Positions 5,285-51,231 of a stretch of 64,000 nt of DNA are shown here, piece after piece. The notes below the pieces were generated by a model. The model had not been told where the DNA came from, searched no databases, and was given only the letters and a program-made list of their open reading frames with translations. The translations under genes and the position numbers were made by a program. Positions within the stretch are counted from its first letter, which is position 1, and every line of letters starts with the position of its first letter. This DNA comes from an uncultured Clostridia bacterium (GTDB lineage Bacteria > Bacillota > JAAYKD01 > CAYOCI01): assembly GCA_964402415.1 (NCBI GenBank), contig CAYOCI010000005.1, positions 15,267 through 79,266 on the forward strand, given 5' to 3'.

Positions 5285-5335
5285 CGACTTTAAGGTAAAC
5301 TTATCTTGGCGAAAAAAAGTAATGGAGGTCTATCT

Positions 5336-6058: not shown

Positions 6059-6059
6059 G

Positions 6060-7325
6060 ATGCATCATTTAGCCATAATGAACTTTGGCTTTGTCCTCTT
6101 TTTTGGAACTACATTGTCTCTTTCTTTCGCAGATATCGGGATCAAAGAGAACATAAAGCAATATGCCCTGGTATTTCTCACTTTAGGATTCGCTCAGATT
6201 ATTGCATTTTTAATCTTTGGAGAGGAGTTCCTGTTTAGATCATATCCGTTCCTGACCCATCTTCCGTTGTTTCTGCTACTGAAGCACTATTACCGAAGAA
6301 GTTCCTATATTGCCGGTATTTCGGTTCTTTCCGCGTATCTCTTTTGCACGCCCAGAAAGTGGATTGGAACTGCGGTTTCTTATTTCTGGAGCTACAATAC
6401 GGGGGTCTCATATCTCGTTCAGATTCTGATCACCATACCCCTTCTAGTAGTCATTGTCAGGTACGTATCTCCTAATGTGGCTCGATTGAAGTTTGAAAGT
6501 AGCACGGTATTAAGATTTTTCATTTTGGTGCCGCTCATATACTACGTGCTTGAATATGTCCTCACGGTTTACACAAATCTGCTGTATCAAGGCGGCGCCG
6601 CCATCGTTGAACTCATGGATGCAGCGGTGGTGGTTATATACTTCATCTTTTCGATTGCTTACCTCAAGATTCTCTATGAAAAGAAAGAAGTTGAGGTCGA
6701 ACAGGCGCTGTTCAAGGTTCTGGCTGACCAATCCAAGGCGGAAATAGAAACACTCAGAAAATCTCAAGAGCAAACCGCCATCTACCGTCATGATATACGG
6801 CACCACATGAATTACCTGAACGCTTGCATTCTGGAAGGCAATCCGGAGCAGGCGCGCTCATATATAACCACAGTCTGCGAGGGTATCGACAATACCAGGG
6901 TGTTACGATACTCGGAGAATGAGTCTGTAAACCTGATCCTCTCGTCCTATGCTGCGAAAGCAGCAGAAAGAAATATCCACAGTGAAATCAGCGTTTCCAC
7001 TGTGGACTTTGGTAAGTTCGCGGTACCTGATCTATGCAGTTTGCTGTTAAATGCTCTGGAAAATGCCATAGGTGCCAGCGAACAAGTAGCGGACAGTAGC
7101 AAACGCTGCATTAGGGTGCGTATGTACTCCAAGAATAACAAGCTGTGCATCGACATTCGCAACAGTTATCAGACACAACCCGTGTTCTACCAAGGGTTCC
7201 CTATATCAAGAGAGCAGGGGCATGGTTTTGGCACAAAAAGTATGGCTCATGTGGTGGAAAAGTATGATGGCATGTACGAGTTTTCGATCAGGGATGGTCT
7301 CTTCGTATTTCAGGCAACTGCATAA
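6060..7325 (+). CDS. AgrC/LytS-like sensor histidine kinase (GHKL ATPase, polytopic N-terminus)
   Basis: Six or seven predicted TM helices, H-box RHDIRHHMNYL, C-terminal HATPase region. Start overlaps the regulator stop. Confidence 0.8.
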   Translation: MHHLAIMNFGFVLFFGTTLSLSFADIGIKENIKQYALVFLTLGFAQIIAFLIFGEEFLFRSYPFLTHLPLFLLLKHYYRRSSYIAGISVLSAYLFCTPRKWIGTAVSYFWSYNTGVSYLVQILITIPLLVVIVRYVSPNVARLKFESSTVLRFFILVPLIYYVLEYVLTVYTNLLYQGGAAIVELMDAAVVVIYFIFSIAYLKILYEKKEVEVEQALFKVLADQSKAEIETLRKSQEQTAIYRHDIRHHMNYLNACILEGNPEQARSYITTVCEGIDNTRVLRYSENESVNLILSSYAAKAAERNIHSEISVSTVDFGKFAVPDLCSLLLNALENAIGASEQVADSSKRCIRVRMYSKNNKLCIDIRNSYQTQPVFYQGFPISREQGHGFGTKSMAHVVEKYDGMYEFSIRDGLFVFQATA

Positions 7326-11997: not shown

Positions 11998-12058
11998 GGT
12001 TGGTGCGAGGGAGGGGAGTTGAACCCCTACGCCGTGAGGCACTAGATCCTAAGTCTAA
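11998..12058. repeat. attL: 61-bp perfect direct repeat of the tRNA-Leu 3' end (identical to 50481..50541)
   Basis: GGTTGGTGCGAGGGAGGGGAGTTGAACCCCTACGCCGTGAGGCACTAGATCCTAAGTCTA is present at both positions; the sequences diverge immediately after. Confidence 0.85.
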
Positions 12059-12167
12059 ATCACGTGCATTTGACTGTCATTGGCAAGATGGGGCAAGCCC
12101 ATGGTTCTGTTGGGTTTTTGGGCAATGGCGGGTTGCCGCAATCAACCGGAAACCGACGCTTTTTGAC

Positions 12168-12188
12168 GACCTATTAGCGGATAATTAG
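12168..12188 (+). promoter_or_regulatory. tandem arm-type repeats ATTAGCGGAT x2 (11-bp period), P' arm
   Basis: Same TTAGCGGAT tandem repeat occurs at 50385..50405 just downstream of int. Confidence 0.5.
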
Positions 12189-12250
12189 CGGATCGGCGTC
12201 TCTATGCTGTCCCGCCTTTCCCCTATTGGGGCATCACCGCGGATGGTCCT

Positions 12251-14011
12251 CTAAAAACGTATCCCCAATAATCCACCATCTTCTTTTGCGTCTGTCAGCG
12301 TCAGCCGAATGTAGTCCTTCAGGTTGAAGCAAGAGTTGAAGAGTTCCCATGGCACATCATCTGAGTTAATGCTACAGATGTACTGGAACCCGCATTCGCC
12401 AGCCTTCCTACAAGCGAGCTCGAGTGCACGTGCTACTTGTCTTTCGTCAACTCCATCATAGATGGTGCTGTCATGAACCAAAAATCTCGGTCCCACGGCC
12501 TTCTTAGCCCATAATTGGGCCAGCATGAGATCATAGCAAAACACCTTCATTTGCTCGATGCCTTGACTGTCAGATCGCTCGATCTCGATATCAAACTTGA
12601 ACCCAGTCTGCGACACATCAACAACGAGCTTTCCCGGAGCTTGATAGAGTGCCTCAGAGTTGCCATTGAAAACGGAAACGGCAGCTTCCAGCGCACTGTG
12701 CCTCGCATCGTGATCAGCAACAGCTTCCAGATGCAGCTTGGCTTGCTCTATCTGCCGAGCGCTCTTTGCCTCTTCTAGCTTGCGAAGGCTTTCGATGCGC
12801 TGTTTCAGAGACTCAAGCCTCGCCACTTTGCTCACGTGATTTTCATTCAACCTTAGGTACTCCTCTAGAGCACCATGACTTTCGAGTACTCGCAACAGGG
12901 ATGATCTCTTCTCAGACAACGCCTTTACCCGTGCATCCCGCTCTTTCACCGCAGTTTCGAGTTGACTGATTTCTGCGGCGAGAAACTCGCGACGGTTCGC
13001 TGTAACTGCGGCGTGAAAGGTAGCAACATCCTGAAGGCGTCTGAGAACGATGTCGGGGAAAGCTAAGCCAATCTCCCTATAAATCTTCTCGACCTGGATC
13101 GGGTCCGTGTGCTTTTCGTCTCTAGTACTCTGTCTGTACGTGTCTATGAGCCTGTGGTCACGGAAGTTTTCATTTGACAGCTTATGGATGGATGAGGTTA
13201 AGGAGCTAGCTTCCTCCTCGATATCGTGATACTGCGGATGCACGTTGAAGGTATCAAGTTGCTGCCTGCCACTAGTGATCTCATTCTCAAGACGGATTCT
13301 ATCGGTCTCAAGCTTGCCGATTGACCCAATCAAATTCGGGAAGAAATCGTCGCTAGCGGCCTTCTTAAGATCCTTCAGCGCCTTCTCAGTATCCTTTATG
13401 AGCTGCCAGTGCTGTGCATGTTCCCAGCCTAGATCCAGCAGGAAGGTGTTATCTACCTGCCTCTCCCACTCCTTCTGCTTCCTATAATGCTCGAAAGGTG
13501 TACTGAACGCATCACGGCCACGCCTAGCGAAATATGATATGAGGTTTCTGAACGAAGGTGCATATCTGCTGGCATTATCCAGACACTCAACAGGAAGATC
13601 AAACAATAGCCATCCCAATACGGTATTCCACTCTCTTACAGGCATCGATGCTGTCCGCGTTCCGGGATCAACTTTCGGTTTAATCGGCCAATTGGACCAA
13701 TCGCCCTCGATCACTACTCTGCCTGGCTTGCTTGTGTTACGCGAAACTGCATACTCCCTGGACCTAAGCAGAATGTCCAGGGAGAAAGTCCAGTTGTCCA
13801 GTTGTTTCTTGAGGAGCCCCTTATTCTTACGCGTTTTGGCTCCAAGGCAGAAATGAATGATCTCAACTAGCGTCGTCTTGCCAAGCCCGTTTCTAGAGTC
13901 CTTATCAGATGACTCATCCGTTTTTTCCGCTAGGATAACATTGAGGCCAGCTCCGAAATGGACATTCTTAAAGCTGGGCTGATCACACCTGACTGCTAGG
14001 ATCATGTTCAT
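12251..14011 (-). CDS. SMC/ABC-type ATPase with long central coiled coil (Lamassu LmuB / Septu PtuA-like)
   Basis: N-terminal GLNVILAEK..NGLGKTTLVEIIHFCLG P-loop. About 230 aa of heptad-rich E/K/L/R sequence. C-terminal signature-like SQGIEQMKVFCYDLMLAQL and Walker B-like RFLVHDS. Probable start at MNMILAV (14011); the ORF listed to 14047 overlaps the upstream small gene. Confidence 0.7.
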   Translation of the reverse strand: MNMILAVRCDQPSFKNVHFGAGLNVILAEKTDESSDKDSRNGLGKTTLVEIIHFCLGAKTRKNKGLLKKQLDNWTFSLDILLRSREYAVSRNTSKPGRVVIEGDWSNWPIKPKVDPGTRTASMPVREWNTVLGWLLFDLPVECLDNASRYAPSFRNLISYFARRGRDAFSTPFEHYRKQKEWERQVDNTFLLDLGWEHAQHWQLIKDTEKALKDLKKAASDDFFPNLIGSIGKLETDRIRLENEITSGRQQLDTFNVHPQYHDIEEEASSLTSSIHKLSNENFRDHRLIDTYRQSTRDEKHTDPIQVEKIYREIGLAFPDIVLRRLQDVATFHAAVTANRREFLAAEISQLETAVKERDARVKALSEKRSSLLRVLESHGALEEYLRLNENHVSKVARLESLKQRIESLRKLEEAKSARQIEQAKLHLEAVADHDARHSALEAAVSVFNGNSEALYQAPGKLVVDVSQTGFKFDIEIERSDSQGIEQMKVFCYDLMLAQLWAKKAVGPRFLVHDSTIYDGVDERQVARALELACRKAGECGFQYICSINSDDVPWELFNSCFNLKDYIRLTLTDAKEDGGLLGIRF

Positions 14012-14228
14012 CCCTCCAAAGAACGCCGTCTTCATATCTGATGGCACCTATCGCGTAGAGGAACGTCAGAGCTAGGACATAGCGCTCAAACGTTCCGACT
14101 TCGGGAAGACGCTTTACACGATCCCACAGCACCGAGACCGTCGATGATCTTGGCATTGCCCGCAAGATACATGCGCCGATTCCAATTAATGAATACTCTG
14201 TGGGGATGTGTTTCGTAGGCAGAATCAT
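13983..14228 (-). CDS. small 81-aa protein translationally coupled between the HNH and ATPase genes (LmuC-like position)
   Basis: Start ATG overlaps the TGA stop of the HNH gene (ATGA). Its 3' end overlaps the ATPase start. Confidence 0.45.
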   Translation of the reverse strand: MILPTKHIPTEYSLIGIGACILRAMPRSSTVSVLWDRVKRLPEVGTFERYVLALTFLYAIGAIRYEDGVLWRDEHDPSSQV

Positions 14229-14983
14229 GGTCTGAACACCTCACACGTATGAAAGAGATGCGCCAGAACAGCCAGAGAAGCAGCCTGTTCACGGAAGTTC
14301 CTCGAAGAGCTACCGCAAAACCGGAACAAACCAAGGAACAGAGCATCACCCATCAGACCTTCCCTCTCGAGCCTCTCAAACTCCAGGACAAACCCATTCT
14401 TCAGCCGCTCTGGGAAATCCCCATCTATTTGTGATATCTGCCTGAGAAACTCCTCAACCTGCGGCGCAGCCGCTAACCCCATCTGAAGAAAGTTCAGGAC
14501 TTTGTTGGTGAGCCCATTTTTGGCCATTTTCTCCCTTGGAGTTGTGATCATGAACTCATCAGTCGGTGGCAGGGCGGGCCCATTAGCGAATGCGGCGCAA
14601 ACTACATGAAGCTCGGCCAAGGTAACGTTGGGTATCTCCTTACTGAGACTATCCCTCACCCATGCCTCATGGTCCATTTTCCACTGCCGCAGCAGGCTGA
14701 CAGTATACGTTGCAGACTGACTATCAACCAGCTCGTGATGATGAGCACACAACAGTATCCAGTTATCGTAGCAGTCTCGCTCATCGAGAGGCATGCGCGG
14801 GTCGGCACGGGGCCCGTCGTCACTGTGAGCCACAATATGTGCAATTTCGCCAAGCACGGCAGCAGAGTCCTCGGAAGTAGCTTCAGCGACACATTCAACT
14901 CTGCATGTTGGGCAGCTGCACCTGGCGGCGGCTAGCCCCCAGAGGATCTTCAGATCCTTCTGTGGTTGGCGACGGTTCACCAT
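14225..14983 (-). CDS. HNH endonuclease-domain protein with uncharacterised ~130-aa helical C-terminal domain
   Basis: CSCPTCRVEC...GEIAHIVAHSDDGPR...YDNWILLCAHHHELVD HNH motif. First gene of the operon, with an AT-rich promoter region at 14984..15110. Confidence 0.7.
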   Translation of the reverse strand: MVNRRQPQKDLKILWGLAAARCSCPTCRVECVAEATSEDSAAVLGEIAHIVAHSDDGPRADPRMPLDERDCYDNWILLCAHHHELVDSQSATYTVSLLRQWKMDHEAWVRDSLSKEIPNVTLAELHVVCAAFANGPALPPTDEFMITTPREKMAKNGLTNKVLNFLQMGLAAAPQVEEFLRQISQIDGDFPERLKNGFVLEFERLEREGLMGDALFLGLFRFCGSSSRNFREQAASLAVLAHLFHTCEVFRP

Positions 14984-15368
14984 GCCTCACCCTTTCACCC
15001 TGAAGATATAGCATGGTATTCTTTCCTCTAGAGCAAAATCCTGCCTCATTAATCGATTTCCACAATTGGGTAGCACACTAAGACACGGGTGAAAGTTATC
15101 ACTATTGACATAAATGGTGTATGTTCGTTCTCACAAACAAAGCAGACAAAAGCCGTAGTGAGGAGTTGATCCCCCACATGGAAGATAGAGGTGTCGGGTA
15201 CCCAAAATACCTGGTCAAAAGCAGATAGTAATACCCCTGCCCACAAAAAAAGGCACCCTGTAGGCCAAACGTCAGAGGCTCTACAAGGGGCTTGTCTATT
15301 GCCACTGTGCGAATGTGTGCGGCCCACGAAGACAGCTGGGGCGTGGCAAAGCGGGGCGCCAGCCCCCA

Positions 15369-15644
15369 TCAGTCCAGCACCCTCAAGAGACGCCACGCCT
15401 TGCCGATCTGATCGTAGCAGAGCTCATAAAGTCCAATGGCCTCTTCGCGAGCTGGTTTGGCGAGCACCTTGAAGTATTGATTGTCGATCGCTTGACTACC
15501 CTTCCACCAGTTGGCTGTCCTAACCCACCTGTTCACGATGCGAACGACATCATAACGTCTCCGCTGCCAGATGAAAAATGGGTTGCGATCCTGTGGCATG
15601 TAGAGGGCAATGGGCTCATCATACCGCTTTGCCAAGAGGCTCAC
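15369..15644 (-). CDS. hypothetical 91-aa protein (second gene of a two-gene cassette)
   Basis: GTG start overlapping the upstream gene by 26 nt. No recognisable motif. Confidence 0.35.
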   Translation of the reverse strand: MSLLAKRYDEPIALYMPQDRNPFFIWQRRRYDVVRIVNRWVRTANWWKGSQAIDNQYFKVLAKPAREEAIGLYELCYDQIGKAWRLLRVLD

Positions 15645-15891
15645 CTCTCATAAGCTCAATGACCTCGCGATCGTGCGACAGGCTAAGGCGATGACTGCTG
15701 TGCCAAATAGCCTCTTCGAACAGACTACCCTCGGCGCACAGGTACACCACCTGGCCGCCGATGTCGAGCGCGTGGATCCGGCCCATGAGGCTCTGGCCAG
15801 CGTAGCGGCGCTGGAGATGGGTGGGGAGCTGGTGCCAGTAGATGGTATCGAGGATGATGGGATCTTGGTCGATGTTGGGGAGCCATCGCAT
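15619..15891 (-). CDS. hypothetical 90-aa protein (first gene of a two-gene cassette)
   Basis: Strong RBS TAGGAGGCG 5 nt before the ATG. Confidence 0.45.
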   Translation of the reverse strand: MRWLPNIDQDPIILDTIYWHQLPTHLQRRYAGQSLMGRIHALDIGGQVVYLCAEGSLFEEAIWHSSHRLSLSHDREVIELMRGEPLGKAV

Positions 15892-16058
15892 AGGGGCGCC
15901 TCCTATCGAACTGTGTTTGCTATAGTATACACAAACACGCGTTCGCTCGCAATGTTGACGAGCCCTGGAAATTATTTTCTTTGAACCCGGTCACACCCAT
16001 TATTTTCTGATATACTCAAACCGTTGAGGCCAGGGGAGAAAAATGAAGGTTGATAAGA

Positions 16059-16316
16059 ATGTTCTTTGAAAGGGTAAAGAAGTATGCTCTCTGGTTCGTT
16101 GATATCCCGTTATGGCTACTCTGGTTCTGGGTGCTCATTCACTGCGCTAACGTAGCCCGCGCACCGGATAGTCCGGTCAGCTACATACTACTCGCGATTG
16201 CACTGGCCAGGTTGTTAGCCCACTACGTGGTGCCACCACCAGATCTAGAAGACTTAGAAACATGGTTTGATATAGCTGAAGGAATAATAAGCATAATTGA
16301 CCCCCAAACACCTTAA
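16059..16316 (+). CDS. small membrane protein (2 TM)
   Basis: FVDIPLWLLWFWVLIHCA and ILLAIALARLLAHYVV hydrophobic helices. Confidence 0.35.
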   Translation: MFFERVKKYALWFVDIPLWLLWFWVLIHCANVARAPDSPVSYILLAIALARLLAHYVVPPPDLEDLETWFDIAEGIISIIDPQTP

Positions 16317-16486
16317 GAAATAGAATGATCAAATCAAAGAGACGTGTGATGTAAGCCAAATAGATTAATCGGATCGAAAACTCCTGCGCCCTCAACACTT
16401 AGTCTATGGTTAGCTATCACATGCAAACAATGTTACACAGACCATCAGGTTCATCCCGATGGTCTTTCCTCTTGTCCTGACAAGCA

Positions 16487-16535
16487 AAAAAGGCCGGTGG
16501 CAGGGAGCCGTTCCCCCGCCACCGGCCCTTCACTT
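16487..16535 (-). terminator. rho-independent terminator (GGCCGGTGGC...GCCACCGGCC + TTTTTTGCTTG on the minus strand)
   Basis: 10-bp GC stem followed by T6. Confidence 0.55.
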
Positions 16536-16551
16536 CTATCGTCTCTTGTCG

Positions 16552-16764
16552 TTACATAGTGTCAGGCGGCTTGATTGTCTCTGGCGTCTGTGCTCGCGGG
16601 TCTCGCTGGATCTCATGGACACCGGACGCCCCCACGGACACCAGGAACGAGTTGACGACAGCCAGGCCAGCAGTCTCTACACTTGCTGTCTTGGTGACCA
16701 GCAGCACGAAGATCTGGAGTACCAGCACGATCAGCGCCGCGAATGATCGGATCCTCTCATCCAA
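16552..16764 (-). CDS. small hydrophobic protein (70 aa)
   Basis: ORF ends immediately upstream of the terminator at 16487..16535; FAALIVLVLQIFVLLV TM segment. Confidence 0.3.
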   Translation of the reverse strand: MDERIRSFAALIVLVLQIFVLLVTKTASVETAGLAVVNSFLVSVGASGVHEIQRDPRAQTPETIKPPDTM

Positions 16765-16865
16765 GAGCGGCTTCAGCCATGTCTAGAAAACCAGATAAAT
16801 GATCGAAGGGTTTCGCTGTTAATGAGAGGAAATTTACCTTACATATTATGCAGGGGGTAATTGCT

Positions 16866-17597
16866 ATGGCCAGTAGATCGAAACGAGAGCGGTCGGAACG
16901 AGCCTTAATAGATGGGGGATTTGGGTTCAGTGGTCTCCTGGCCATGTGGCTATGGGGAAAATCAAAGAGTCTGTTAGTCGGTGTGGTCTTCTTTCTTACG
17001 TGCCTAGTCCTTCTATATATTATGCTTGAGTATAAACGCAGACGGGAGCATCAACGTCTGATTGACAGTGGCCTTGACATTGTGGATCAGATGGATGGCG
17101 AGTTGTTTGAGGATTTTCTACTGGCGCATTTTCGTAACCTTGGTTATTCGGGGCAGACTACCCCGTTCAACGATTACGGAGCTGATCTGATCCTAGATAA
17201 AGATGGAATGAGAACAGTTGTACAAGCAAAACGGTGGAAACAGCCAGTCGGCATCGAAGCAATTCAACAAGTAATTGGAGCGATAAGCTATTATGGCGCA
17301 CAGAACGCCCTTGTAATAACGAACAGTGTTTTCACAAATGCCGCCCGAGATCTGGCAAGGGCCAATAAAGTTGGTCTCTGGGATCGGGAACAATTGATGG
17401 AAGTAATGAGGACGTCAAATGGAAGGGCAGTAGCGCTCGCTTCACAGCAAGCCGCTACCACAAAGACATCTGGAAATAACCCATGTCCGAAATGCGGTCG
17501 TGAGTTGATCAGAAGGAAAGGTAAGTTCGGCGACTTCTATGGCTGTACAGGGTATCCTGCCTGTAAGTTTACGCGCAACGCTCAAAGTAGGGACTAG
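16866..17597 (+). CDS. membrane-anchored Mrr-cat-type restriction endonuclease domain protein with C-terminal topoisomerase-type C4 zinc ribbon
   Basis: TM helix LLVGVVFFLTCLVLLYIML. Nuclease core ..DYGADLILDKDGMRTVVQAKRWKQPVG... C-terminal CPKCGRELIRRKGKFGDFYGCTGYPACKF. RBS GGGGGT before the ATG at 16866. Confidence 0.65.
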   Translation: MASRSKRERSERALIDGGFGFSGLLAMWLWGKSKSLLVGVVFFLTCLVLLYIMLEYKRRREHQRLIDSGLDIVDQMDGELFEDFLLAHFRNLGYSGQTTPFNDYGADLILDKDGMRTVVQAKRWKQPVGIEAIQQVIGAISYYGAQNALVITNSVFTNAARDLARANKVGLWDREQLMEVMRTSNGRAVALASQQAATTKTSGNNPCPKCGRELIRRKGKFGDFYGCTGYPACKFTRNAQSRD

Positions 17598-17619
17598 CAG
17601 AAAGAGGGGCCGAAGCCCC

Positions 17620-18252
17620 TCATCGTACGTACGCCTTATTCTCTTCTTCGACCCAATCCACGCGCCTGCTTAGCTTGTTAATGGCCTCGATTGTAGCTCG
17701 GAGCGGCACCCACATCACACCGTCAATTTCACGTGTCTTGAGTATAGTATCACCGATCTGCGCGATCGGCGCTTCGTACAGCGCTCTCTCGACAGTTGCG
17801 ATCAGGTCAAAGTCATCCATGATGCTGATGACCTTCCGTGCATATGATGGGTCCGTGGCGTATCCGGCCAGAGTAATGGCTTCAATGTAGGACACCGGGT
17901 TACCCCTGACCGCCATGGCAGGGGCATACCTCTCGGCCTGGGTTATCAGCTCAGCGTAGTCAGCGAAGCTCTCCTCATAGCTGTGGTAACACCGGAACTG
18001 GCTCGGGATACTTACGTCTTGGCCGTTAATGTGCTCCCAGGCACGCACCTCCACAAGACCCGCGGGGCCTTCGCCCTTTATGTTGAACAGATTGTGGCTC
18101 GACTGACCATCAGGGCGCTGAAGTACCGCCGGTCCCCATCCCGTTTCCAGTGCAGCCTGGGCAATCATGGCCGCTGCTGGCAAACCGTAGCGACGCTGGA
18201 CGGCCGTAGCGTGGGGGAGCAGTTGGGCGATGAAGTCTTTAGGCGCCATGTG
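17620..18252 (-). CDS. endolysin, glucosaminidase (GH73, FlgJ-like) domain
   Basis: AQAALETGWG...SHNLFNIKG motif. RBS AAAGGTGA. Start overlaps the holin stop. Confidence 0.75.
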   Translation of the reverse strand, partial: HMAPKDFIAQLLPHATAVQRRYGLPAAAMIAQAALETGWGPAVLQRPDGQSSHNLFNIKGEGPAGLVEVRAWEHINGQDVSIPSQFRCYHSYEESFADYAELITQAERYAPAMAVRGNPVSYIEAITLAGYATDPSYARKVISIMDDFDLIATVERALYEAPIAQIGDTILKTREIDGVMWVPLRATIEAINKLSRRVDWVEEENKAYVR

Positions 18253-18682
18253 TCTCACCTTTACTCTTACCCTGCAGCACCTCAACGGCCTGCATGATGA
18301 TGGGCGGGATGGGCACCCCAATGGTCCCTAGGTTCTCGATCCCGCTTAACAACTCATTGGCTAGGTAGAAGAAGACCGCGGCGTCGCGGATCAGGTGAGC
18401 ATCGCCCAGCACAGCATCCACGTGGTGTCCCATGGCCACAACAACGAAGATGCCGATCTTCTTCGCGATCCCCTTGAAGCCGACAGAGCTATTCAGCTTA
18501 CCATGTATGGCTGCGGCGGTTACGCCCGTTACGTAGTCGACTACTACGAACAGCAGCAGTGTCTTCAGCAACGGACTCCACCCCCCAAGCAGGTAGGTAA
18601 TTGCGGCACCACCAACAGCTACCGGAGCAGCTGCGTCGACCCGCACCGATGGTCGGATGAACTCGACAATCTTGGCAAACAC
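18239..18682 (-). CDS. phage holin
   Basis: 147 aa with 3 TM segments and a charged C-terminus, immediately upstream of and overlapping the endolysin gene. Confidence 0.65.
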   Translation of the reverse strand: MFAKIVEFIRPSVRVDAAAPVAVGGAAITYLLGGWSPLLKTLLLFVVVDYVTGVTAAAIHGKLNSSVGFKGIAKKIGIFVVVAMGHHVDAVLGDAHLIRDAAVFFYLANELLSGIENLGTIGVPIPPIIMQAVEVLQGKSKGETHGA

Positions 18683-44794: not shown

Positions 44795-45451
44795 TTGTCC
44801 AGACCGCCAGACCGACCACGAAGGGATGTGAACTATCTGACTATCCTAGACCTTGTGATCAAGTACGCAGGGATTGTCAGTGTGGCTGCAATACTCGTCA
44901 CTTGGGGCGCAGCCTACTTCAATACGCGTCCTCGCTTGACGCTCAAACTTAGTGAACCCGTGATATGCCAGTATGGCTGCGATTATAGGCAGAACCAGAT
45001 CGGTGATGTAGTACCGTACCCGGTGGCCAACAAAGCTTTCATTGGGCTTCGCTTTTTCATAGCCAATTATGGTAAGCTACCGTGCTCTGTCCTGTCTTGG
45101 AGCCTACACGTAGGTAAGCATCAGATAACCAATTTTGGTCATTACCCCAGGTGGTTCAACGGTGCAGATACCCTCGATGCAGAGCGAGTTGATTGTCACT
45201 TCGCTCGCGAGGCAACCTTCATACCCCTACCTGACGTGGAGCGGTATTTTAACCTGTATCAGACTCGATGTGCGTCAGTAGGCTTCGAAATCCCAGCCGA
45301 ATGGTTGCGGGCAAAACGGGCATCGCTGGTGATAACCTACTCGACCTATAGGCTGTTCAGGAACAGGCCGCACGAGTCGAAGTTACGGTTTTCAATACCC
45401 GAGATAGGCTTGAAGCAGCGTGACAACAAGAGTAATCAGCGAGAATGGTAA
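44795..45451 (+). CDS. hypothetical membrane-anchored protein divergent from the early operon (candidate superinfection-exclusion gene)
   Basis: N-terminal TM ILDLVIKYAGIVSVAAILVTWGAAYF, Cys-rich body. Only plus-strand gene in this block. Confidence 0.4.
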   Translation: MSRPPDRPRRDVNYLTILDLVIKYAGIVSVAAILVTWGAAYFNTRPRLTLKLSEPVICQYGCDYRQNQIGDVVPYPVANKAFIGLRFFIANYGKLPCSVLSWSLHVGKHQITNFGHYPRWFNGADTLDAERVDCHFAREATFIPLPDVERYFNLYQTRCASVGFEIPAEWLRAKRASLVITYSTYRLFRNRPHESKLRFSIPEIGLKQRDNKSNQREW

Positions 45452-46056: not shown

Positions 46057-46081
46057 AAATGCAGGTAAGGTGGTGACTGCG

Positions 46082-46525
46082 ATGATCGGTAGTAGACTGA
46101 AGGCATTTCGGACAGAAAGAGACCTCACCCAGGATGAGCTGGGCAAGGTCTTGGGGGTTGGCAAGACAACTATCTCTCAGTATGAGAGCGAAGCACGCAA
46201 ACCAGATTCCGAAATGCTGAACCGCATAGCTGACTACTTCCACACATCAGTCGACTACCTCCTCGGACGAACCGAGGACCCATCCCCCACCCCGGCTACC
46301 GATCCTAAGACTGAGGAAGCGGAGCACCGCATCGACGAGGCCTTAGCCGAAGACGCGGATCCCGACGCTGCCGAGCTAAACGCCTTCTGGCAGGAGATAA
46401 GAAAACGGCCTGACCTGTTCTTGCTGTTCAAGCAGGTCAGACCTATGAGCAATGATAGCATTCGTCGGGCAATCCGAATTATCAAGGCTATAGAGGAAGA
46501 AGAGCAGGACGAGAAGAATCGGTAG
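46082..46525 (+). CDS. XRE-family repressor (ImmR/CI-like)
   Basis: LTQDELGKVLGVGKTTISQYESEARKP HTH. RBS AAGGTGGTGA before the ATG at 46082. Confidence 0.7.
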   Translation: MIGSRLKAFRTERDLTQDELGKVLGVGKTTISQYESEARKPDSEMLNRIADYFHTSVDYLLGRTEDPSPTPATDPKTEEAEHRIDEALAEDADPDAAELNAFWQEIRKRPDLFLLFKQVRPMSNDSIRRAIRIIKAIEEEEQDEKNR

Positions 46526-46644
46526 TGGTAGATCCGCCAATGTGGTACATAGCAACAATATCTGCCTGGTAACCAGCTTGCCAGGCATTTATTTCACCCC
46601 TGCATACGAACAAATGTTTGTATCATGCTATCAGGAGTGATCAA

Positions 46645-47031
46645 ATGCTTCCAGACATCCATAAAGAGCTTCGCGCCCTAACCTGCAGCGAGCTCTATCA
46701 ACGCCTGGTCGATCACCGTGACATGGTCGAGGAGATCCTGCACGCTTTCCAAATCACGACCCGCGTCGGCGCCCTCGGCCTAGACAACGCAGGTATGACC
46801 TATCGCTCCGCAGACGGCAGATATTACATCATTGCCAATCAGATCCTCGAGTTTGAGCAGCAGGAGCTCGTCTTCTTCCACGAGCTTTATCACATCGTAG
46901 TCGAAGCCCCCCAGGCCACGCGTTTCTTACGCATGGACTACACAGAAGAGGAACACGCGGCTGATGCTGTGGCCGAAGTTGCGGCAGGCTGGGAGCAAGC
47001 TAGCAGAGCTGATGAAGAATGGCTAGTATGA
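46645..47031 (+). CDS. ImmA/IrrE-family zinc metallopeptidase (anti-repressor protease)
   Basis: FHELYHIVVE HEXXH motif. RBS AGGAGTGA. Directly downstream of the repressor gene. Confidence 0.65.
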   Translation: MLPDIHKELRALTCSELYQRLVDHRDMVEEILHAFQITTRVGALGLDNAGMTYRSADGRYYIIANQILEFEQQELVFFHELYHIVVEAPQATRFLRMDYTEEEHAADAVAEVAAGWEQASRADEEWLV

Positions 47032-47151: not shown

Positions 47152-49014
47152 TCAATCTATACAACGGTATTTGTCATATATCGAACATGATGGACTTCTG
47201 AGCGTAATGTTGACTTGTTCCTGGTCTTCTAGGAGAGCCTTCCGAACCTCATCAGTGTTCTGCATGACAGCATCAGTGAAGACCAGCTTCCTCTGTATGG
47301 TCACCTCGTTACCACACAAGATCACAGTTAATGGCTCATATTCTCCGTGGTGCTCAAAAACAAGACTCTCCAGCCTATCAAGATGGGGTTCAAGCTCCTT
47401 TGCAGGCCATGAATATGCGACTGTCTGGACATCGCGTTTTCCTCGGTGAATGGCGCTGATAAGTGTGGCTACCGCAGAATCATCACCTGCTGACCATTTA
47501 CTCATATCGAGGCAAAGGTTAAAGTGAGTGGCAACGGAACGAACTCTGCGCAGATGGGTTAGATACTGATGCATTCTATCTCGAAAGCTGTCAACGTCGG
47601 CTCCAGTAAAGTTGCCAGCGAGAGGTACTTTGTGATTCCGCTCGGGGTCAATCACCATGAGTGTCTTTCCACACGCAAACTGTGATGCGATCATAGCTGC
47701 CGCATACATCTCTTCAATGTCACTCCCGTACTTGAAAGTCACCGCAAGCTTGTGCGTGGACCGATTCAACTTAGGCGTCCTAATGGTTATTGCAAGACAT
47801 TGGCTATTGAGTGAGACTTGGTATTCATGACTAAGCTCATAGCAGCAGACATCCGCCATAACCTTCTCCGGCATCGATTTGATCACCAGTACACCACTAT
47901 ACTGGCGAGTAGGATGCCTTTGGAACACAAGATCGCCAGATATTCCACCCTTTGCCTGGTCAAGCAGAAAATCTCCTGTCTTTGTTTCCATGCTAAGGAC
48001 CATCTTAGAAGGGATCTTTAGCTTTAGCTCTCTCCCCTCATGAAAAGCTTCTAGAGCTTTGTGGGCTTGACTAGTGAACTGCATGTCCAGTGTCATAGGG
48101 GTTCCCGGGACCAGAGTTATAGATCTAGAACCATCCGTGCTAGCGGTCAAACTCAGTTCTATCCCATTTTCCCTAACAACTTGTGCGATTCGGCTAATCT
48201 TGGTGTACTCACCGTCTTTGAAGCCAATCACTGTATACGGGTATGTCATCTTATGTAGGCACTCAAGCGCCTCCCGGGCGGTCATGTCGACATAATGGAT
48301 ACCCAGCTGCTCTAGGCGATCTCTATTGTGCTGTGCCCAACTCGGCGCTATTAGAAACCTCTCGGGTACACTATCCGATAGTTGCTTTGACACCGCTTCG
48401 AACACGAACTCAACATTAGGATCGTCAAACCCGTGACCTACTAGGACTACTGATTTGTGCGCTAGACACGTCTTGACACATGACCATAGAAGCGAGTTCC
48501 TAGCGACTGAGTTATCCAGAAATCGGTTATAGTCGCTACGTGTAATGATGATGCCATCCGGATCCCTACATATGTCCCCATGAACTTTGATTAAGGTTGT
48601 CCTGTCATCGCGCCCGTAGTTGGCTAGGTCTTTATCAGTCGATAAGACGACTAATTGATCCTCAAATGCTCTCTCGAAGAGATTGTCATAGTTGGTGGTG
48701 ATGATAGTCTCGATCTGAACCATGCCTTTGACAAGCCTATGCAACACTAGGTCGGGGGTCGGTCTATCGAGTGACTCCTGCACAATCCGTATTAGCTCTG
48801 AACGATCCCCCCTTCTCAATCGTACATACTCCTCTGCAACTTCAGGTAGGCCGCTACGTTGGTCAAGGAACTCTACTTCCTCTGGAGCGCAGCGCTGCTT
48901 GATGGCATTGACCAGATCATTACCCATGGGCAGTCCAGCATCCCAGTTGAACCCAGCTCCCGTCCATAGCACGACTTCTCCCCTACGGATCTTCTCAGCA
49001 ATCCGATGAAGCAT
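47152..49014 (-). CDS. SIR2-like (SIR2_2 / DUF4020-type) domain protein with ~350-aa uncharacterised C-terminal domain; candidate NADase defence effector
   Basis: VVLWTGAGFNWDAGLP, ITTNYDNLFERAF, IKVHGDI and VLVGHGFDDPNVEFVF motifs in the first ~270 aa. Standalone gene between the immunity module and int. Confidence 0.7.
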   Translation of the reverse strand: MLHRIAEKIRRGEVVLWTGAGFNWDAGLPMGNDLVNAIKQRCAPEEVEFLDQRSGLPEVAEEYVRLRRGDRSELIRIVQESLDRPTPDLVLHRLVKGMVQIETIITTNYDNLFERAFEDQLVVLSTDKDLANYGRDDRTTLIKVHGDICRDPDGIIITRSDYNRFLDNSVARNSLLWSCVKTCLAHKSVVLVGHGFDDPNVEFVFEAVSKQLSDSVPERFLIAPSWAQHNRDRLEQLGIHYVDMTAREALECLHKMTYPYTVIGFKDGEYTKISRIAQVVRENGIELSLTASTDGSRSITLVPGTPMTLDMQFTSQAHKALEAFHEGRELKLKIPSKMVLSMETKTGDFLLDQAKGGISGDLVFQRHPTRQYSGVLVIKSMPEKVMADVCCYELSHEYQVSLNSQCLAITIRTPKLNRSTHKLAVTFKYGSDIEEMYAAAMIASQFACGKTLMVIDPERNHKVPLAGNFTGADVDSFRDRMHQYLTHLRRVRSVATHFNLCLDMSKWSAGDDSAVATLISAIHRGKRDVQTVAYSWPAKELEPHLDRLESLVFEHHGEYEPLTVILCGNEVTIQRKLVFTDAVMQNTDEVRKALLEDQEQVNITLRSPSCSIYDKYRCID

Positions 49015-49200
49015 TCCATCACCTCAAAGCAGGTGGGTTTTCCTGTTACCACCTGAATGTCGTTAATATGAAGTCCCTGCCCTATTGGATTGGGACAACC
49101 ACTTATCTATTTTACCACAACTGGCAGCATCTTCTTGTCCTCTGGATGCGAGGTGTTCGCTGGTCATCTACAACAAACAAGACAGGATGGTGGTGTATCC

Positions 49201-50391
49201 ATGCAATTCACAAGTCGCATCGACAAGGTCGATAAGAACCATTACCGGATCGTAGTCAATCTCGGCCATGATCCAACAGATCGCAGGTACAAGAAAAAAC
49301 AGAAGGACGTCCACGGGACAAAGGCCGAGGCAGAGCTGGTACTGCAGTCCTGGATCGAGGAGTTGCAGCAGGCTCCGAAGACGCTGTCCAGTCAGACAAT
49401 CGGGCAGTTCCTCATGCATTGGGTAGACACGATTGCCAAGCCTGAGCTAGAGCGCAATACGTACGATAGTTACCGCTGGGAGCTCGAAAAGCATATCGTC
49501 CCTAGTCTGGGGCATATCCCACTGTGTGAGATCGCGCCAATCCACGTCCAGACCTTCTACAGCTACAAAGCCGAGGCCGGGCGTCTGGATGGCAAAGGCG
49601 GGCTCTCGAACCGGACGATCACGTATCACCATGCCATTCTCAACCAGGCCCTGGCCAGTGCAAAAGTCCTGAAGCTGATCGAAGAGAACCCCTGTGATGT
49701 GGTAAAGCCACCGCGCGACAAGCGCAACGCTAGCGAAAAGATCGGCGTGGTGCTTACCAAGGACGAGTTGGGTTCCGTCCTCATTCGCCTGAGAGGACAC
49801 CGAGACTATGCACTGATCTACGCCGCTGCTTTCACGGGCATGAGACAGTCTGAGCTGCTGGGCCTGCAGTGGGATGACATCCTTTGGGACACCAAGCAGA
49901 TCCGCGTGCGGAAGGCCATGCACCGGCACCGCAGCGGCGAGTATGAGCATCGAGCCAGGACAAAGAACAAGACCAGCTCCCGGATCATCAAAGTGACTGA
50001 TGATCTCATGGTAGTGCTCAGAGAGCATCGCAAAGAACAGATGCAAGCCCTCTTGGCTGCAGGTAGTGATCGCTCATCCAACCTTGTCTTCCCTGACTTG
50101 GATGGCTCACCGCAGAACCGGCTCAACGTCTACCACCGCTTCAGAAACATCATCACTAAGCTCGGGCACAAAGGCATGCGCTTTCACGATCTGCGTCATA
50201 CCCACGCAACGATCTTGCTCGCGAGCGGTGTCATGATCAACGTGGTCAGCAAACGTCTCGGCCATGCCAACGTCGACACGACCCTCGGCATCTATGCTCA
50301 CGTACTCCCAGAGTTCGAGAACAACGCGGCTGATACATTCGCGGATCTGGTCGTCACGAAGGCCACAGAGGCCGCTTCCAAAACTTATTAG
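49201..50391 (+). CDS. int: tyrosine recombinase (phage integrase)
   Basis: C-terminal ..RFHDLRHTHATILLASG...LGHANVDTTLGIYAHV (R..H..R..Y). RBS GGTGGTG before the ATG at 49201. Adjacent to attR / tRNA-Leu. Confidence 0.85.
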   Translation: MQFTSRIDKVDKNHYRIVVNLGHDPTDRRYKKKQKDVHGTKAEAELVLQSWIEELQQAPKTLSSQTIGQFLMHWVDTIAKPELERNTYDSYRWELEKHIVPSLGHIPLCEIAPIHVQTFYSYKAEAGRLDGKGGLSNRTITYHHAILNQALASAKVLKLIEENPCDVVKPPRDKRNASEKIGVVLTKDELGSVLIRLRGHRDYALIYAAAFTGMRQSELLGLQWDDILWDTKQIRVRKAMHRHRSGEYEHRARTKNKTSSRIIKVTDDLMVVLREHRKEQMQALLAAGSDRSSNLVFPDLDGSPQNRLNVYHRFRNIITKLGHKGMRFHDLRHTHATILLASGVMINVVSKRLGHANVDTTLGIYAHVLPEFENNAADTFADLVVTKATEAASKTY

Positions 50392-50480: not shown

Positions 50481-50541
50481 GGTTGGTGCGAGGGAGGGGA
50501 GTTGAACCCCTACGCCGTGAGGCACTAGATCCTAAGTCTAG
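50481..50541. repeat. attR core (61-bp direct repeat, identical to 11998..12058)
   Basis: Exact match to attL; overlaps the 3' 57 nt of tRNA-Leu. Confidence 0.85.
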
Positions 50542-50568
50542 CGTGTCTGCCAATTCCACCACCCTCGC
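50484..50568 (-). tRNA. tRNA-Leu (anticodon TAG), integration target
   Basis: 85 nt. Acceptor GCGAGGG/CCCTCGC + A + CCA. Long variable arm. Anticodon loop CTTAGGA. Confidence 0.8.
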
Positions 50569-50637
50569 ATGGATGAAGGTTCCTATAGATGCAAACAGCT
50601 GAAAGCGATCGCTCACTTTCAACTCTGATCACATAAA

Positions 50638-50712
50638 TGGTGGGCTACGATGGGATCGAACCATCGACACCCCGCTTAAAAGGCGGGTGCTCTACCCCTG
50701 AGCTAGTAGCCC
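50638..50712 (-). tRNA. tRNA-Lys (TTT)
   Basis: GGGCTACTAGCTCAGGGGTAGAGCACCCGCCTTTTAAGCGGG..TTCGATCC..CCA. Confidence 0.8.
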
Positions 50713-50724
50713 GCGTTAGTGAAG

Positions 50725-50800
50725 TGGTTGGGGCGGCAGGACTCGAACCTACGCATGCGGGAGTCAAAGTCCCGTGCCTTACCGACTTGGCTACGCCCCA
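50725..50800 (-). tRNA. tRNA-Gln (TTG)
   Basis: TGGGGCGTAGCCAAGTCGGTAAGGCACGGGACTTTGACTCCCG..TTCGAGTCC..CCA. Confidence 0.8.
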
Positions 50801-50821
50801 ATGGGTGATGTCTGATGGAAA

Positions 50822-50898
50822 TGGCGCGCCCGGCAGGATTCGAACCTGCGACCACCGGATTCGTAGTCCGTTACTCTATCCAGCTGAGCTACGGGCGC
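50822..50898 (-). tRNA. tRNA-Arg (ACG)
   Basis: GCGCCCGTAGCTCAGCTGGATAGAGTAACGGACTACGAATCCG..TTCGAATCC..CCA. Confidence 0.8.
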
Positions 50899-50918
50899 AT
50901 ATAAGGTTTTGGGAAAAG

Positions 50919-50996
50919 TGGGGTGGATGATGAGACTCGAACTCACGACCCCCAGAGCCACAATCTGGTGCTCTAACCAACTGAGCTACACCCACC
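50919..50996 (-). tRNA. tRNA-His (GTG) with G-1
   Basis: GGTGGGTGTAGCTCAGTTGGTTAGAGCACCAGATTGTGGCTCTGG..TTCGAGTCT..CCA. Extra 5' G pairs with C73. Confidence 0.8.
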
Positions 50997-51047
50997 ACGT
51001 CAAACATGTGGCTAGACAACTTGGGAACAAGGAAGGCAATCAAGGAA

Positions 51048-51123
51048 TGGCGCGCCTGGCAGGAATCGAACCTGCGGCCAACGGATTAGAAGTCCGTTGC
51101 TCTATCCCCTGAGCTACAGGCGC
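51048..51123 (-). tRNA. tRNA-Arg (TCT)
   Basis: GCGCCTGTAGCTCAGGGGATAGAGCAACGGACTTCTAATCCGTT..TTCGATTCC..CCA. Confidence 0.8.
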
Positions 51124-51154
51124 ACAGAACGCCCTGTATGGGAGCTTTAAGATG

Positions 51155-51231
<77 letters not shown>

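What the first reader, a model, noticed from the sequence alone, without database searches (positions are those of the whole stretch)
47152..49014. Standalone 620-aa SIR2_2 protein with a novel C-terminal domain in the immunity-to-integrase cargo slot
Seen in the sequence: the N-terminal ~270 aa carry the four SIR2_2 (DUF4020-type) hallmark motifs (VVLWTGAGFNWDAGLP; ITTNYDNLFERAF; IKVHGDI; VLVGHGFDDPNVEFVF). The remaining ~350 aa look like a beta-rich domain with no motif I recognise. From established knowledge: this SIR2 clade supplies the NAD+-depleting effector of Thoeris ThsA, DSR1/DSR2, SIR2-HerA and SPARSA. All of those either have partner genes or are about 1000 aa or longer. As inference: this gene has no partner; it is convergent with immA and followed by int. 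It lies in the classic lysogenic-conversion slot between the repressor module and the integrase. A compact single-gene DSR-like abortive-infection sensor/effector is the likeliest reading, with the C-terminal domain as the phage-protein sensor.
Basis: partly seen in the sequence, partly recalled or inferred. Interest (0 to 1): 0.75.

Follow-up and report, generated by a model that had tools for sequence, protein, structure and literature searches.

The report
Prophage single-gene SIR2 defence candidate
A prophage carries, next to its integrase, one gene that fuses a probable NAD+-destroying SIR2 enzyme to a 360-residue domain unlike any known domain or solved structure; it belongs to an unnamed family found in defence islands and mobile elements of bacteria and archaea and is most likely a new one-gene anti-phage system.

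Summary
A 620-aa ORF lies at 47152-49014 (-), with SIR2_2 at residues 103-241 (E 5e-27) and the catalytic Asn108 and His145 aligned to ThsA N112/H152. Residues 263-620 match nothing in Pfam, NCBIfam, PADLOC, PHROGs or the PDB. A good AlphaFold model (pLDDT 82) has no structural relative.

The gene is cargo of a 38.5-kb prophage bounded by 60-bp att repeats at tRNA-Leu. It sits between the repressor/ImmA-like pair and the integrase, and its GC is low for the prophage.

The protein is not an orphan. A profile of the C-terminal module finds 316 cluster representatives, nearly all 610-650 aa with the same two-part layout, in Bacteroidota, Firmicutes and methanogens. Across 25 loci no neighbouring gene is conserved. 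Neighbours are restriction, Abi, GmrSD, Tn7 and resolvase genes. The C-terminal half diverges about twice as fast as the SIR2 half.

Best reading: a single-gene, NAD+-depleting abortive-infection or superinfection-immunity protein whose C-terminal module senses infection. It is not ThsA, DSR1/2, SIR2-HerA, SPARSA or Avs5.

Compact one-gene SIR2 defences already exist (sole-Sir2, AbiH), so this is a new variant of a known kind. No function has been tested.

The parts
47152..49014 (-). Complete gene for the 620-aa SIR2_2 plus orphan C-terminal module protein (stop codon included)
   Evidence: ORF. An identical protein is on record as P0001. GC is 0.484 against 0.551 for the rest of the prophage, and only 3 of 366 same-size prophage windows are lower.
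48229..49014 (-). N-terminal SIR2_2 (ThsA-like) NADase domain, aa 1-262. It carries the Rossmann G19/G21 motif and the catalytic residues N108, D110 and H145.
   Evidence: Pfam E 5e-27. PADLOC ThsA SIR2 part E 1.5e-25. PDB ThsA 6lhx and 7uxt, KomC and DSR2 match only this part, with N108 and H145 aligned to BcThsA N112 and H152. N108, D110 and H145 are 100%, 99% and 100% conserved in 92 family members.
47155..48228 (-). C-terminal ~358-aa module, aa 263-620. It has a low-confidence linker, a beta-rich subdomain (~aa 307-465), a helical hairpin (~aa 474-522) and an alpha/beta subdomain (~aa 526-618). It is the putative sensor or regulatory domain.
49015..49200 (.). Divergent intergenic region between the SIR2 gene and the integrase. 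It contains the SD GAGGTG at 49020-49025 (minus strand) and is presumed to hold the SIR2 gene's own promoter.
   Evidence: Sequence. The simple scan found no sigma-70 consensus here. The integrase start at 49201 is taken from the 396-aa gene call on the identical Logan contig.
49090..50391 (+). Prophage tyrosine integrase (probable true start ATG 49201)
   Evidence: Phage_integrase E 3.9e-27 and Phage_int_SAM_3. A 396-aa call exists on L001.
46618..47031 (+). 137-aa HExxH protein downstream of the repressor (ImmA-like, tentative), convergent with the SIR2 gene
   Evidence: The FHELYH motif is in the translation. The only hits are weak: phrog_87 metalloprotease E 0.034 and PDC-M69B E 7e-4. No Pfam hit.
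46070..46525 (+). CI-type HTH_3 repressor of the prophage
   Evidence: HTH_3 E 2e-14 and Phage_CI_repr E 0.003.
11998..12057 (+). attL: 60-bp exact direct repeat of attR
50481..50540 (+). attR: 60-bp repeat overlapping the 3' end of tRNA-Leu(tag) at 50484-50568 (-)

Best explanation
The gene encodes a self-contained, one-protein anti-phage system carried as prophage cargo. In the lysogen it is probably expressed from its own promoter in the int-SIR2 intergenic region (inferred). The N-terminal ThsA-type SIR2 domain is held inactive. When another phage infects, the ~360-residue C-terminal module detects a phage-derived cue, most likely a phage protein bound directly. It then releases or assembles the SIR2 domains, probably through an oligomeric change as in ThsA, DSR2 and Avs5. 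The SIR2 domain hydrolyses NAD+ to ADP-ribose and nicotinamide, and the infected cell stalls before the phage can complete replication. This is abortive infection or superinfection immunity that protects the lysogen population and hence the prophage. What is shown: the domain architecture, the intact catalytic residues, the absence of a partner gene, the family-wide conservation of the architecture, and the mobile-element and defence-island context. What is inferred: NADase activity, the defence phenotype, the nature of the trigger, and the activation mechanism.
For: (1) SIR2_2 domain, E 5e-27. Its nearest relatives are the experimentally characterised NADase effectors ThsA, KomC and DSR2. Catalytic N108 and H145 align to BcThsA N112 and H152 and are 100% conserved in 92 family members. 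(2) The gene lies inside a bona fide prophage. The prophage has 60-bp att repeats at tRNA-Leu and terminase, portal, major head and tape-measure genes. The gene sits between the immunity module and the integrase, and its GC is among the lowest in the prophage. The other end of the prophage carries a complete PADLOC candidate system, PDC-M68A/B (E 4e-82 and 5.5e-201), plus an Mrr-like nuclease. This phage therefore collects defence cargo. (3) The C-terminal profile finds 316 representatives, nearly all 610-650 aa with the module at about residue 260 to the end. (4) In 25 independent loci the only shared gene is the SIR2 gene itself, and the next most frequent cluster occurs in 3 loci. (5) Neighbours are defence or mobile-element genes: TnsABCDE with nSTAND and AAA_15/21; HsdR, D5 primase and excisionase; ResIII, DUF4238, HEPN_AbiU2 and a weak, sub-threshold SIR2_2-like match (E 6.7e-4, 20.2 bits against a 24.5-bit cut-off); resolvases, TniB/TnsD and HsdR; EcoRI methylase and two GmrSD genes. 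(6) Mean pairwise identity is 39% in the SIR2 half and 20% in the C-terminal half, and the N-terminal half is more conserved in all 1081 pairs. The module has almost no invariant residues. This fits a recognition surface under diversifying pressure better than an enzyme or a conserved ligand pocket. (7) The same module is fused to a different P-loop N-terminus in P0176 (hhalign probability 99.3%). Such module shuffling is typical of defence proteins. (8) There are precedents for single-protein SIR2 defences that sense phage proteins directly or act alone: DSR2 with the tail tube (PMC10981675, PMC11087589) and sole-Sir2.
Against: No experiment exists for any family member. Defence, NADase activity and the trigger are all inferred. 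PADLOC 2.0 has no model covering the whole protein. No source names it beyond 'SIR2 family NAD-dependent protein deacylase'. The C-terminal module resembles no known sensor, so 'sensor' is argued by exclusion. The simple scan found no promoter or terminator around the gene. The domain-swap evidence rests on one protein whose P-loop part is only a ~100-residue helicase fragment. No complete phage genome in INPHARED carries the full architecture, and only 3 IMG/VR contigs do. The family is therefore mostly chromosomal or mobile-element cargo rather than typically phage-borne.
Confidence: 0.62

Rival explanations
1. The effector and the defence role are the same, but the C-terminal module is not a direct phage-protein sensor. 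It is an autoinhibitory or oligomerisation scaffold, and activation follows an indirect cue such as nucleic acid, a nucleotide-derived signal, or host shut-off.
For: The central long helical hairpin and two beta-rich lobes could form an assembly interface. SIR2 effectors commonly act as tetramers or filaments (ThsA, DSR2, Avs5, FAM118B; PMC11897194, PMC12700824). Weak, non-significant Foldseek hits to DnaN sliding clamps recur in both the PDB and BFVD.
Against: The clamp hits have probability 0.12 or less and TM about 0.10, so they are not evidence. The module lacks conserved polar residues of the kind expected for a fixed small-molecule or nucleic-acid site. Its charge is near neutral (K+R 42, D+E 45), which does not suggest nucleic-acid binding. 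The very fast divergence fits a variable protein ligand better.
Confidence: 0.2
2. It is the effector of a signalling system whose sensor or signal synthase is encoded elsewhere, Thoeris- or Kongming-like. The C-terminal module would replace SLOG as the receptor for a nucleotide second messenger.
For: The SIR2 domain is most similar to ThsA and KomC, both of which are signal-activated effectors.
Against: There is no SLOG or Macro domain. No neighbour is conserved in 25 loci, and no TIR, cyclase or kinase partner was seen. Mobile cargo that moves as a single gene between phyla and into archaea cannot depend on a partner encoded elsewhere. There are no conserved ligand-pocket residues.
Confidence: 0.07
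3. It is not an immune gene. It would be a protein deacylase or ADP-ribosyltransferase that modifies a host or phage target for the element's benefit, such as lysogenic conversion or regulation. Alternatively it is a toxin-like addiction module that stabilises the mobile element.
For: Sources annotate relatives as 'NAD-dependent protein deacylase'. The gene sits in mobile elements of several kinds (Tn7-like, prophage, casposon-like).
Against: The annotation is generic. PF13289-type SIR2 domains related to ThsA and DSR are characterised as NADases, not deacetylases (Garb et al. 2022, cited in PMC11514479 and PMC13064643). No antitoxin-like small gene is conserved next to it. The repeated co-location with RM, Abi and GmrSD genes is the usual signature of defence.
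Confidence: 0.08

Closest known systems
Thoeris ThsA (SIR2-SLOG; PDB 6lhx, 7uxt, 8bto)
   Same: It has the closest SIR2 domain by sequence: PADLOC 87.8 bits and PDB E 4e-13 to 3e-12. It shares the catalytic Asn and His and the N-terminal placement of the effector.
   Different: ThsA has a ~200-aa SLOG domain that binds gcADPR and needs a TIR partner, ThsB. Here there is no SLOG, a 360-aa unrelated module in its place, and no TIR neighbour.
DSR2 / DSR1 (defence-associated sirtuins, Garb et al. 2022; PDB 8k98 etc.)
   Same: The logic is the same: one polypeptide with an N-terminal SIR2 NADase and a C-terminal sensor. In DSR2 the sensor binds the phage tail tube protein directly. This is the best functional analogue.
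   Different: DSR1 and DSR2 are about 1000-1250 aa with alpha-solenoid/HEAT-like C-terminal regions (PMC11850899). This protein is 620 aa with a beta-rich module. It scores about 17-18 bits against the 1400-bit NCBIfam equivalog cut-offs, and the DSR2 PDB match is limited to the SIR2 domain.
sole-Sir2 (CRISPR-supervised system, bioRxiv 10.1101/2024.12.27.630466)
   Same: It is a compact single-gene SIR2 protein. That paper reports it as an NADase in vitro, and a homologue protects against T2 and T4.
   Different: It is ~440 aa with the SIR2 domain at the C-terminus and an unknown N-terminal part, so the domain order is opposite.
PADLOC candidates PDC-S25 / PDC-S65 and PHROG 2695 (uncharacterised single SIR2 proteins of ~500-590 aa)
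   Same: They are single-gene SIR2_2 proteins of similar size, predicted defence candidates or phage-encoded.
   Different: The matches cover only the SIR2 core, for example query 94-214 to profile positions 133-247 of 517. The C-terminal module is not shared.
Avs5 (SIR2-STAND) and SIR2-HerA (Nezha) / SIR2-pAgo (SPARSA)
   Same: They use the same SIR2 NAD+-depleting effector principle.
   Different: They require a STAND NTPase domain, a HerA partner or an Argonaute partner. None is present in this protein or its neighbours.

Membership tests
SIR2_2 (PF13289) defence-type sirtuin NADase superfamily | Significant match to the family model above the curated cut-off | tested here: met
   95.1 bits against a 24.5-bit cut-off, E 5.1e-27, aa 103-241.
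SIR2_2 (PF13289) defence-type sirtuin NADase superfamily | Catalytic Asn and His (BcThsA N112/H152) and the Rossmann Gly motif are present | tested here: met
   N108 and H145 align to N112 and H152 of 6lhx. G19, G21, N108, D110 and H145 are 99-100% conserved in the family.
SIR2_2 (PF13289) defence-type sirtuin NADase superfamily | NAD+ hydrolase activity | not testable with these tools
   This needs biochemistry.
Thoeris ThsA | C-terminal SLOG (PF18185) or Macro signal-binding domain | tested here: not met
   No PF18185 hit. The PADLOC ThsA match stops at profile position 236 of 478. hhalign of the C-terminal profile against a ThsA gives probability 0.1%.
Thoeris ThsA | Adjacent TIR-domain ThsB gene | tested here: not met
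   The window neighbours are a repressor, an HExxH protein and an integrase. No neighbour is conserved in 25 loci. No TIR domain was found among 30 annotated neighbours.
DSR1 / DSR2 | Full-length match to the NCBIfam equivalog (cut-off 1400 bits), with ~1000-1250 aa and a helical-repeat C-terminal sensor | tested here: not met
   17.9 and 17.1 bits. The protein is 620 aa with a mainly beta C-terminal module.
DSR1 / DSR2 | Acts as a single gene without a conserved partner | tested here: met
   Neighbour clustering.
SIR2-HerA (Nezha) / SIR2-pAgo (SPARSA) | Adjacent HerA helicase or short Argonaute gene | tested here: not met
   Neither was seen in any locus.
Avs5 (SIR2-STAND) | Central STAND/NOD NTPase domain in the same polypeptide | tested here: not met
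   No P-loop or STAND Pfam hit in the 620-aa protein.
PADLOC PDC-S25 / PDC-S65 | Full-length match to the candidate-system model | tested here: not met
   Only about 115 of 517 profile positions match, and all are in the SIR2 core.
sole-Sir2 | ~440 aa with a C-terminal SIR2 domain and an N-terminal unknown region | tested here: not met
   The domain order here is the reverse, by the paper's description. No sequence comparison was possible.
The new family itself (SIR2_2 + ~360-aa C-terminal module) | Both halves are present, collinear, ~610-650 aa in total | tested here: met
   The query scores E 4.9e-128 against the module profile at aa 262-620. It is collinear with P0005 over 350 aa.

The most novel reading that the evidence does not exclude
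The ~360-residue C-terminal module is a previously unrecognised class of phage-sensing (pattern-recognition) domain with an orphan fold. It binds a conserved phage protein directly and switches on whatever effector is fused to it, usually a SIR2 NADase and occasionally a P-loop domain. As a compact one-gene immune receptor it has spread by prophages, Tn7-like elements and casposon-like elements across Bacteroidota, Firmicutes and methanogenic archaea.
Probability: 0.4. Interest if true: 0.65.

Novelty: new variant of a known kind. Interest (0 to 1): 0.52.

Why it matters
If confirmed, it would add a compact (1.9 kb) single-gene NAD+-depletion defence system with a sensor domain of unknown fold. 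The family has hundreds of diverged members in phyla where few systems have been tested, namely Bacteroidota and methanogenic archaea. Finding its trigger would extend the short list of direct phage-protein sensors and give a small, portable sensor-effector pair. It would also show that this prophage arms its host at both ends, with the SIR2 gene at attR and PDC-M68 plus an Mrr-like nuclease at attL. The general principle, a SIR2 effector fused to a variable sensor, is already well established. The advance would therefore be incremental rather than conceptual.

Tried and rejected
(1) The word-indexed homologue search with the whole protein gave only 5 close relatives and suggested an orphan. 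The exhaustive profile search showed this was a sensitivity artefact, with 316 representatives. The same index search with the 24-sequence module profile again found only 9.

(2) Sequence searches of the module profile against the PDB and Pfam gave nothing credible. The best hits were E 0.11 and STAS_2 at E 0.017, below its cut-off.

(4) The short (~430-460 aa) module-bearing proteins were considered as alternative architectures. They were rejected because they begin in the middle of SIR2_2 and are therefore contig-truncated.

(5) A degenerate SLOG was rejected.

(6) A conserved upstream partner was considered because many loci have a same-strand gene ending about 40 bp before the SIR2 start. 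These genes are unrelated to one another.

(7) Host identification failed. Exact look-ups of flanking housekeeping proteins returned either nothing or only short Logan contigs of run DRR182650.

(8) INPHARED phages contain only SIR2-core matches, for example Lactococcus phage BK5-T, and none carries the module.

(9) The promoter and terminator scans were uninformative.
Full report
OBSERVATION. The minus-strand ORF 47152..49014 encodes 620 aa from an ATG start. A GAGGTG Shine-Dalgarno sequence lies 5 nt upstream. Pfam SIR2_2 (PF13289) matches aa 103-241 at E 5.1e-27, with 95 bits against a 24.5-bit cut-off. PADLOC's best hit is the SIR2 half of ThsA (E 1.5e-25, profile positions 10-236 of 478), followed by PDC-S25, Dsr1, LmuA and Dsr2. 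All of these cover the SIR2 core only. Sequence matches to solved structures (ThsA 7uxt and 6lhx, KomC 8zsf, DSR2 8k98, FAM118B) likewise cover only aa ~3-240. The query's N108 and H145 align to the catalytic N112 and H152 of B. cereus ThsA. Nothing in Pfam, NCBIfam, PHROGs, PADLOC or PDB sequences matches aa ~263-620.

SETTING. A 60-bp exact direct repeat, 11998-12057 = 50481-50540, overlaps the 3' end of tRNA-Leu(tag) at the head of a seven-tRNA array. It bounds a 38.5-kb element. The element encodes terminase large subunit, portal, major head and tape-measure proteins, an endolysin, a Bro-N protein, cro- and CI-type HTH proteins, and a tyrosine integrase. The SIR2 gene lies between a CI-like repressor (46070-46525) with its downstream 137-aa HExxH protein (46618-47031) and the integrase. 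It is convergent with the HExxH gene and divergent from the integrase. The HExxH protein is ImmA-like only by motif, by position and by a weak PHROG hit. The integrase spans 49090/49201-50391. The SIR2 gene's GC is 0.484 against 0.551 for the rest of the prophage, and only 3 of 366 same-length prophage windows are lower. That is typical of recently acquired cargo. The opposite end of the prophage, between the endolysin and attL, holds full-length matches to the two-gene PADLOC candidate system PDC-M68 (E 4e-82 and 5.5e-201) and an Mrr-type nuclease. This phage therefore carries defence-type cargo at both ends.

THE FAMILY. The word-indexed search found only five relatives of similar length. 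Their C-terminal halves are linked by weak but collinear similarity: query to P0005 over 350 aa, P0003 to P0005 at 1e-8, P0004 to P0006 at 5e-8. A profile of those five C-terminal halves was searched exhaustively against 1.84 billion cluster representatives. It found 316 proteins at E of 1e-3 or better, 225 of them at 1e-10 or better. Nearly all of the 150 listed are 610-650 aa with the module starting at residue ~260. The shorter ones begin inside SIR2_2 and are truncated by contig ends. In 92 full-length members G19, G21, N108, D110 and H145 are 99-100% conserved. The C-terminal half has only a handful of conserved positions: G327, P368, F502, N586 and S607. Mean pairwise identity is 39% for the SIR2 half and 20% for the C-terminal half, and the N-terminal half is the more conserved in all 1081 pairs. 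Public sources give members only the generic name 'SIR2 family NAD-dependent protein deacylase'.

DISTRIBUTION AND NEIGHBOURS. A scan of one genome per species returned 80 SIR2 loci. Twenty-two of them carry the full architecture. They come from Rufibacter, Dyadobacter, Flavobacterium, Chitinophaga, Hymenobacter, Mucilaginibacter, Niabella, Draconibacterium, Sporomusa rhizae, Clostridium gasigenes, Methanocellaceae and Methanomicrobiales. Three IMG/VR viral contigs also carry the architecture. No complete INPHARED phage does. I clustered all ORFs within 8 kb in 25 non-redundant loci. The only cluster shared by all is the SIR2 gene itself, and the next most frequent (HsdR-like) occurs in three loci. 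Annotated neighbours include TnsABCDE followed by a Metallophos-nSTAND protein and an AAA_15/21 ATPase. Others include Cas1 fragments with a PolB-like gene in a methanogen, and RusA, D5 primase, an HTH_17 excisionase and HsdR. Further neighbours are a DUF1016/YhcG nuclease, ResIII, DUF4238, HEPN_AbiU2 and a weak, sub-threshold SIR2_2-like match (E 6.7e-4, 20.2 bits against a 24.5-bit cut-off). There are also resolvases, TniB/TnsD and HsdR, and EcoRI methylase with two GmrSD-type genes. No TIR, HerA or Argonaute gene was seen. The context is that of defence islands and mobile elements.

MECHANISM. Shown: a ThsA-type SIR2 domain with intact catalytic residues; a conserved fusion to a fast-evolving orphan module; no partner gene; and a mobile, defence-island and prophage-cargo location. 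From established knowledge, SIR2_2 domains of ThsA, DSR1/2, SIR2-HerA, SPARSA and Avs5 hydrolyse NAD+ on activation and abort infection (Garb et al. 2022; PMC10981675, PMC11087589, PMC11897194). Inferred: the protein is a self-contained sensor-effector. The C-terminal module keeps the SIR2 domain off until it recognises an infection cue, and the NAD+ collapse that follows blocks the superinfecting phage. I favour a directly bound phage protein as the cue. The module diverges about twice as fast as the enzyme, lacks conserved pocket residues, is near-neutral in charge, and travels between phyla as a single gene. I put the overall reading at about 0.62. By component, NADase chemistry is at about 0.85, a defence role at about 0.75, and direct protein sensing at about 0.5. 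The rivals are an indirect or oligomerisation-based trigger (0.2), a trans-encoded signalling partner (0.07), and a non-immune deacylase or addiction function (0.08).

COMPARISON WITH KNOWN SYSTEMS. In working logic the protein is most like DSR2, a single polypeptide with an N-terminal SIR2 and a C-terminal sensor. It is not a DSR: it scores about 17-18 bits against 1400-bit equivalog cut-offs, is about 40% shorter, and has a beta-rich rather than alpha-solenoid C-terminus. Its SIR2 domain is closest to ThsA, but it fails both other defining features of ThsA, the SLOG domain and the TIR partner. It lacks the partners or domains that define SIR2-HerA, SPARSA and Avs5. PADLOC candidates PDC-S25 and PDC-S65 and PHROG 2695 share only the SIR2 core. 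The single-gene lactococcal AbiH is predicted to be sirtuin-like (PMC13064643). I found no paper that describes this architecture. The library searched is incomplete, so prior description cannot be excluded.

VERDICT. This is a real feature and it was correctly spotted. It is a member of an unnamed, recurrent family that is very probably a one-gene SIR2 defence system with a sensor domain of unknown fold. It is best classed as a new variant of a known kind. Interest is moderate (0.52). SIR2 effector modularity is expected by specialists, but the orphan-fold module, the wide phyletic spread including archaea, and the compact size make it a good experimental target.

Noticed in passing
window 12251-14983 (-): At the attL end of the same prophage there is a complete two-gene PADLOC candidate system, PDC-M68. 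PDC-M68A is an HNH_2 protein at 14225-14983 (E 4e-82). PDC-M68B is an ABC-3C/LmuB-like ATPase with DUF2326 and CTD10 at 12251-14047 (E 5.5e-201). The region 12058-17600 has GC 0.507 against 0.547 for the prophage.
   Followed up: partly
window 16848-17597 (+): An Mrr_cat restriction-endonuclease domain fused to a topoisomerase-type zinc ribbon (type IV REase / ZorD-nuclease-like). It lies between the endolysin (17620-18321) and attL and is probably a further defence moron.
   Followed up: partly
window 11998-12057 and 50481-50540: Perfect 60-bp att repeats define a 38.5-kb prophage integrated into the 3' end of tRNA-Leu(tag). That tRNA is the first of seven tRNA genes clustered at 50484-51231.
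   Followed up: yes
window 44795-45451 (+): A 218-aa ORF with an N-terminal hydrophobic helix lies on the strand opposite to the surrounding early genes. It has no hit in Pfam, PADLOC, NCBIfam or PHROGs and may be another moron.
   Followed up: partly
window 5306-7325 (+): A low-GC patch (0.43-0.45) outside the prophage encodes a LytTR response regulator and a GHKL histidine kinase. This is an Agr-like two-component pair and may have been acquired horizontally.
   Followed up: no
L002 2996-9896 (Methanocellaceae MAG, contig_75434): The archaeal family member P0003 sits just downstream of Cas1 gene fragments and a PolB-like gene. This suggests cargo of a casposon-like element, possibly a decayed one.
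   Followed up: no
L087 5402-6883 (Logan SRR31629360 contig): P0176 joins the same C-terminal module to a P-loop AAA_11/AAA_19 N-terminus instead of SIR2 (hhalign probability 99.3%). The contig's neighbouring genes (Por_Secre_tail, DUF3945, Toprim_Crpt) are what I take to be Bacteroidota conjugative-element markers. It is the only alternative architecture seen among the 150 listed hits.
   Followed up: partly
L009 8004-12844 (Sporomusa rhizae chromosome) and L004 1-9698: Family genes are embedded in Tn7-like elements. In L004 the gene lies directly after TnsABCDE. In L009 it lies immediately upstream of, and overlapping, a TniB-like ATPase gene that is followed by TnsD.
   Followed up: partly
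L004 7962-9698 and L027 8663-9793: Two family members look damaged. P0005 lacks the ~60 N-terminal residues that carry the Rossmann GAG motif. The Niabella copy survives only as a 376-aa C-terminal ORF. This suggests occasional decay.
   Followed up: no
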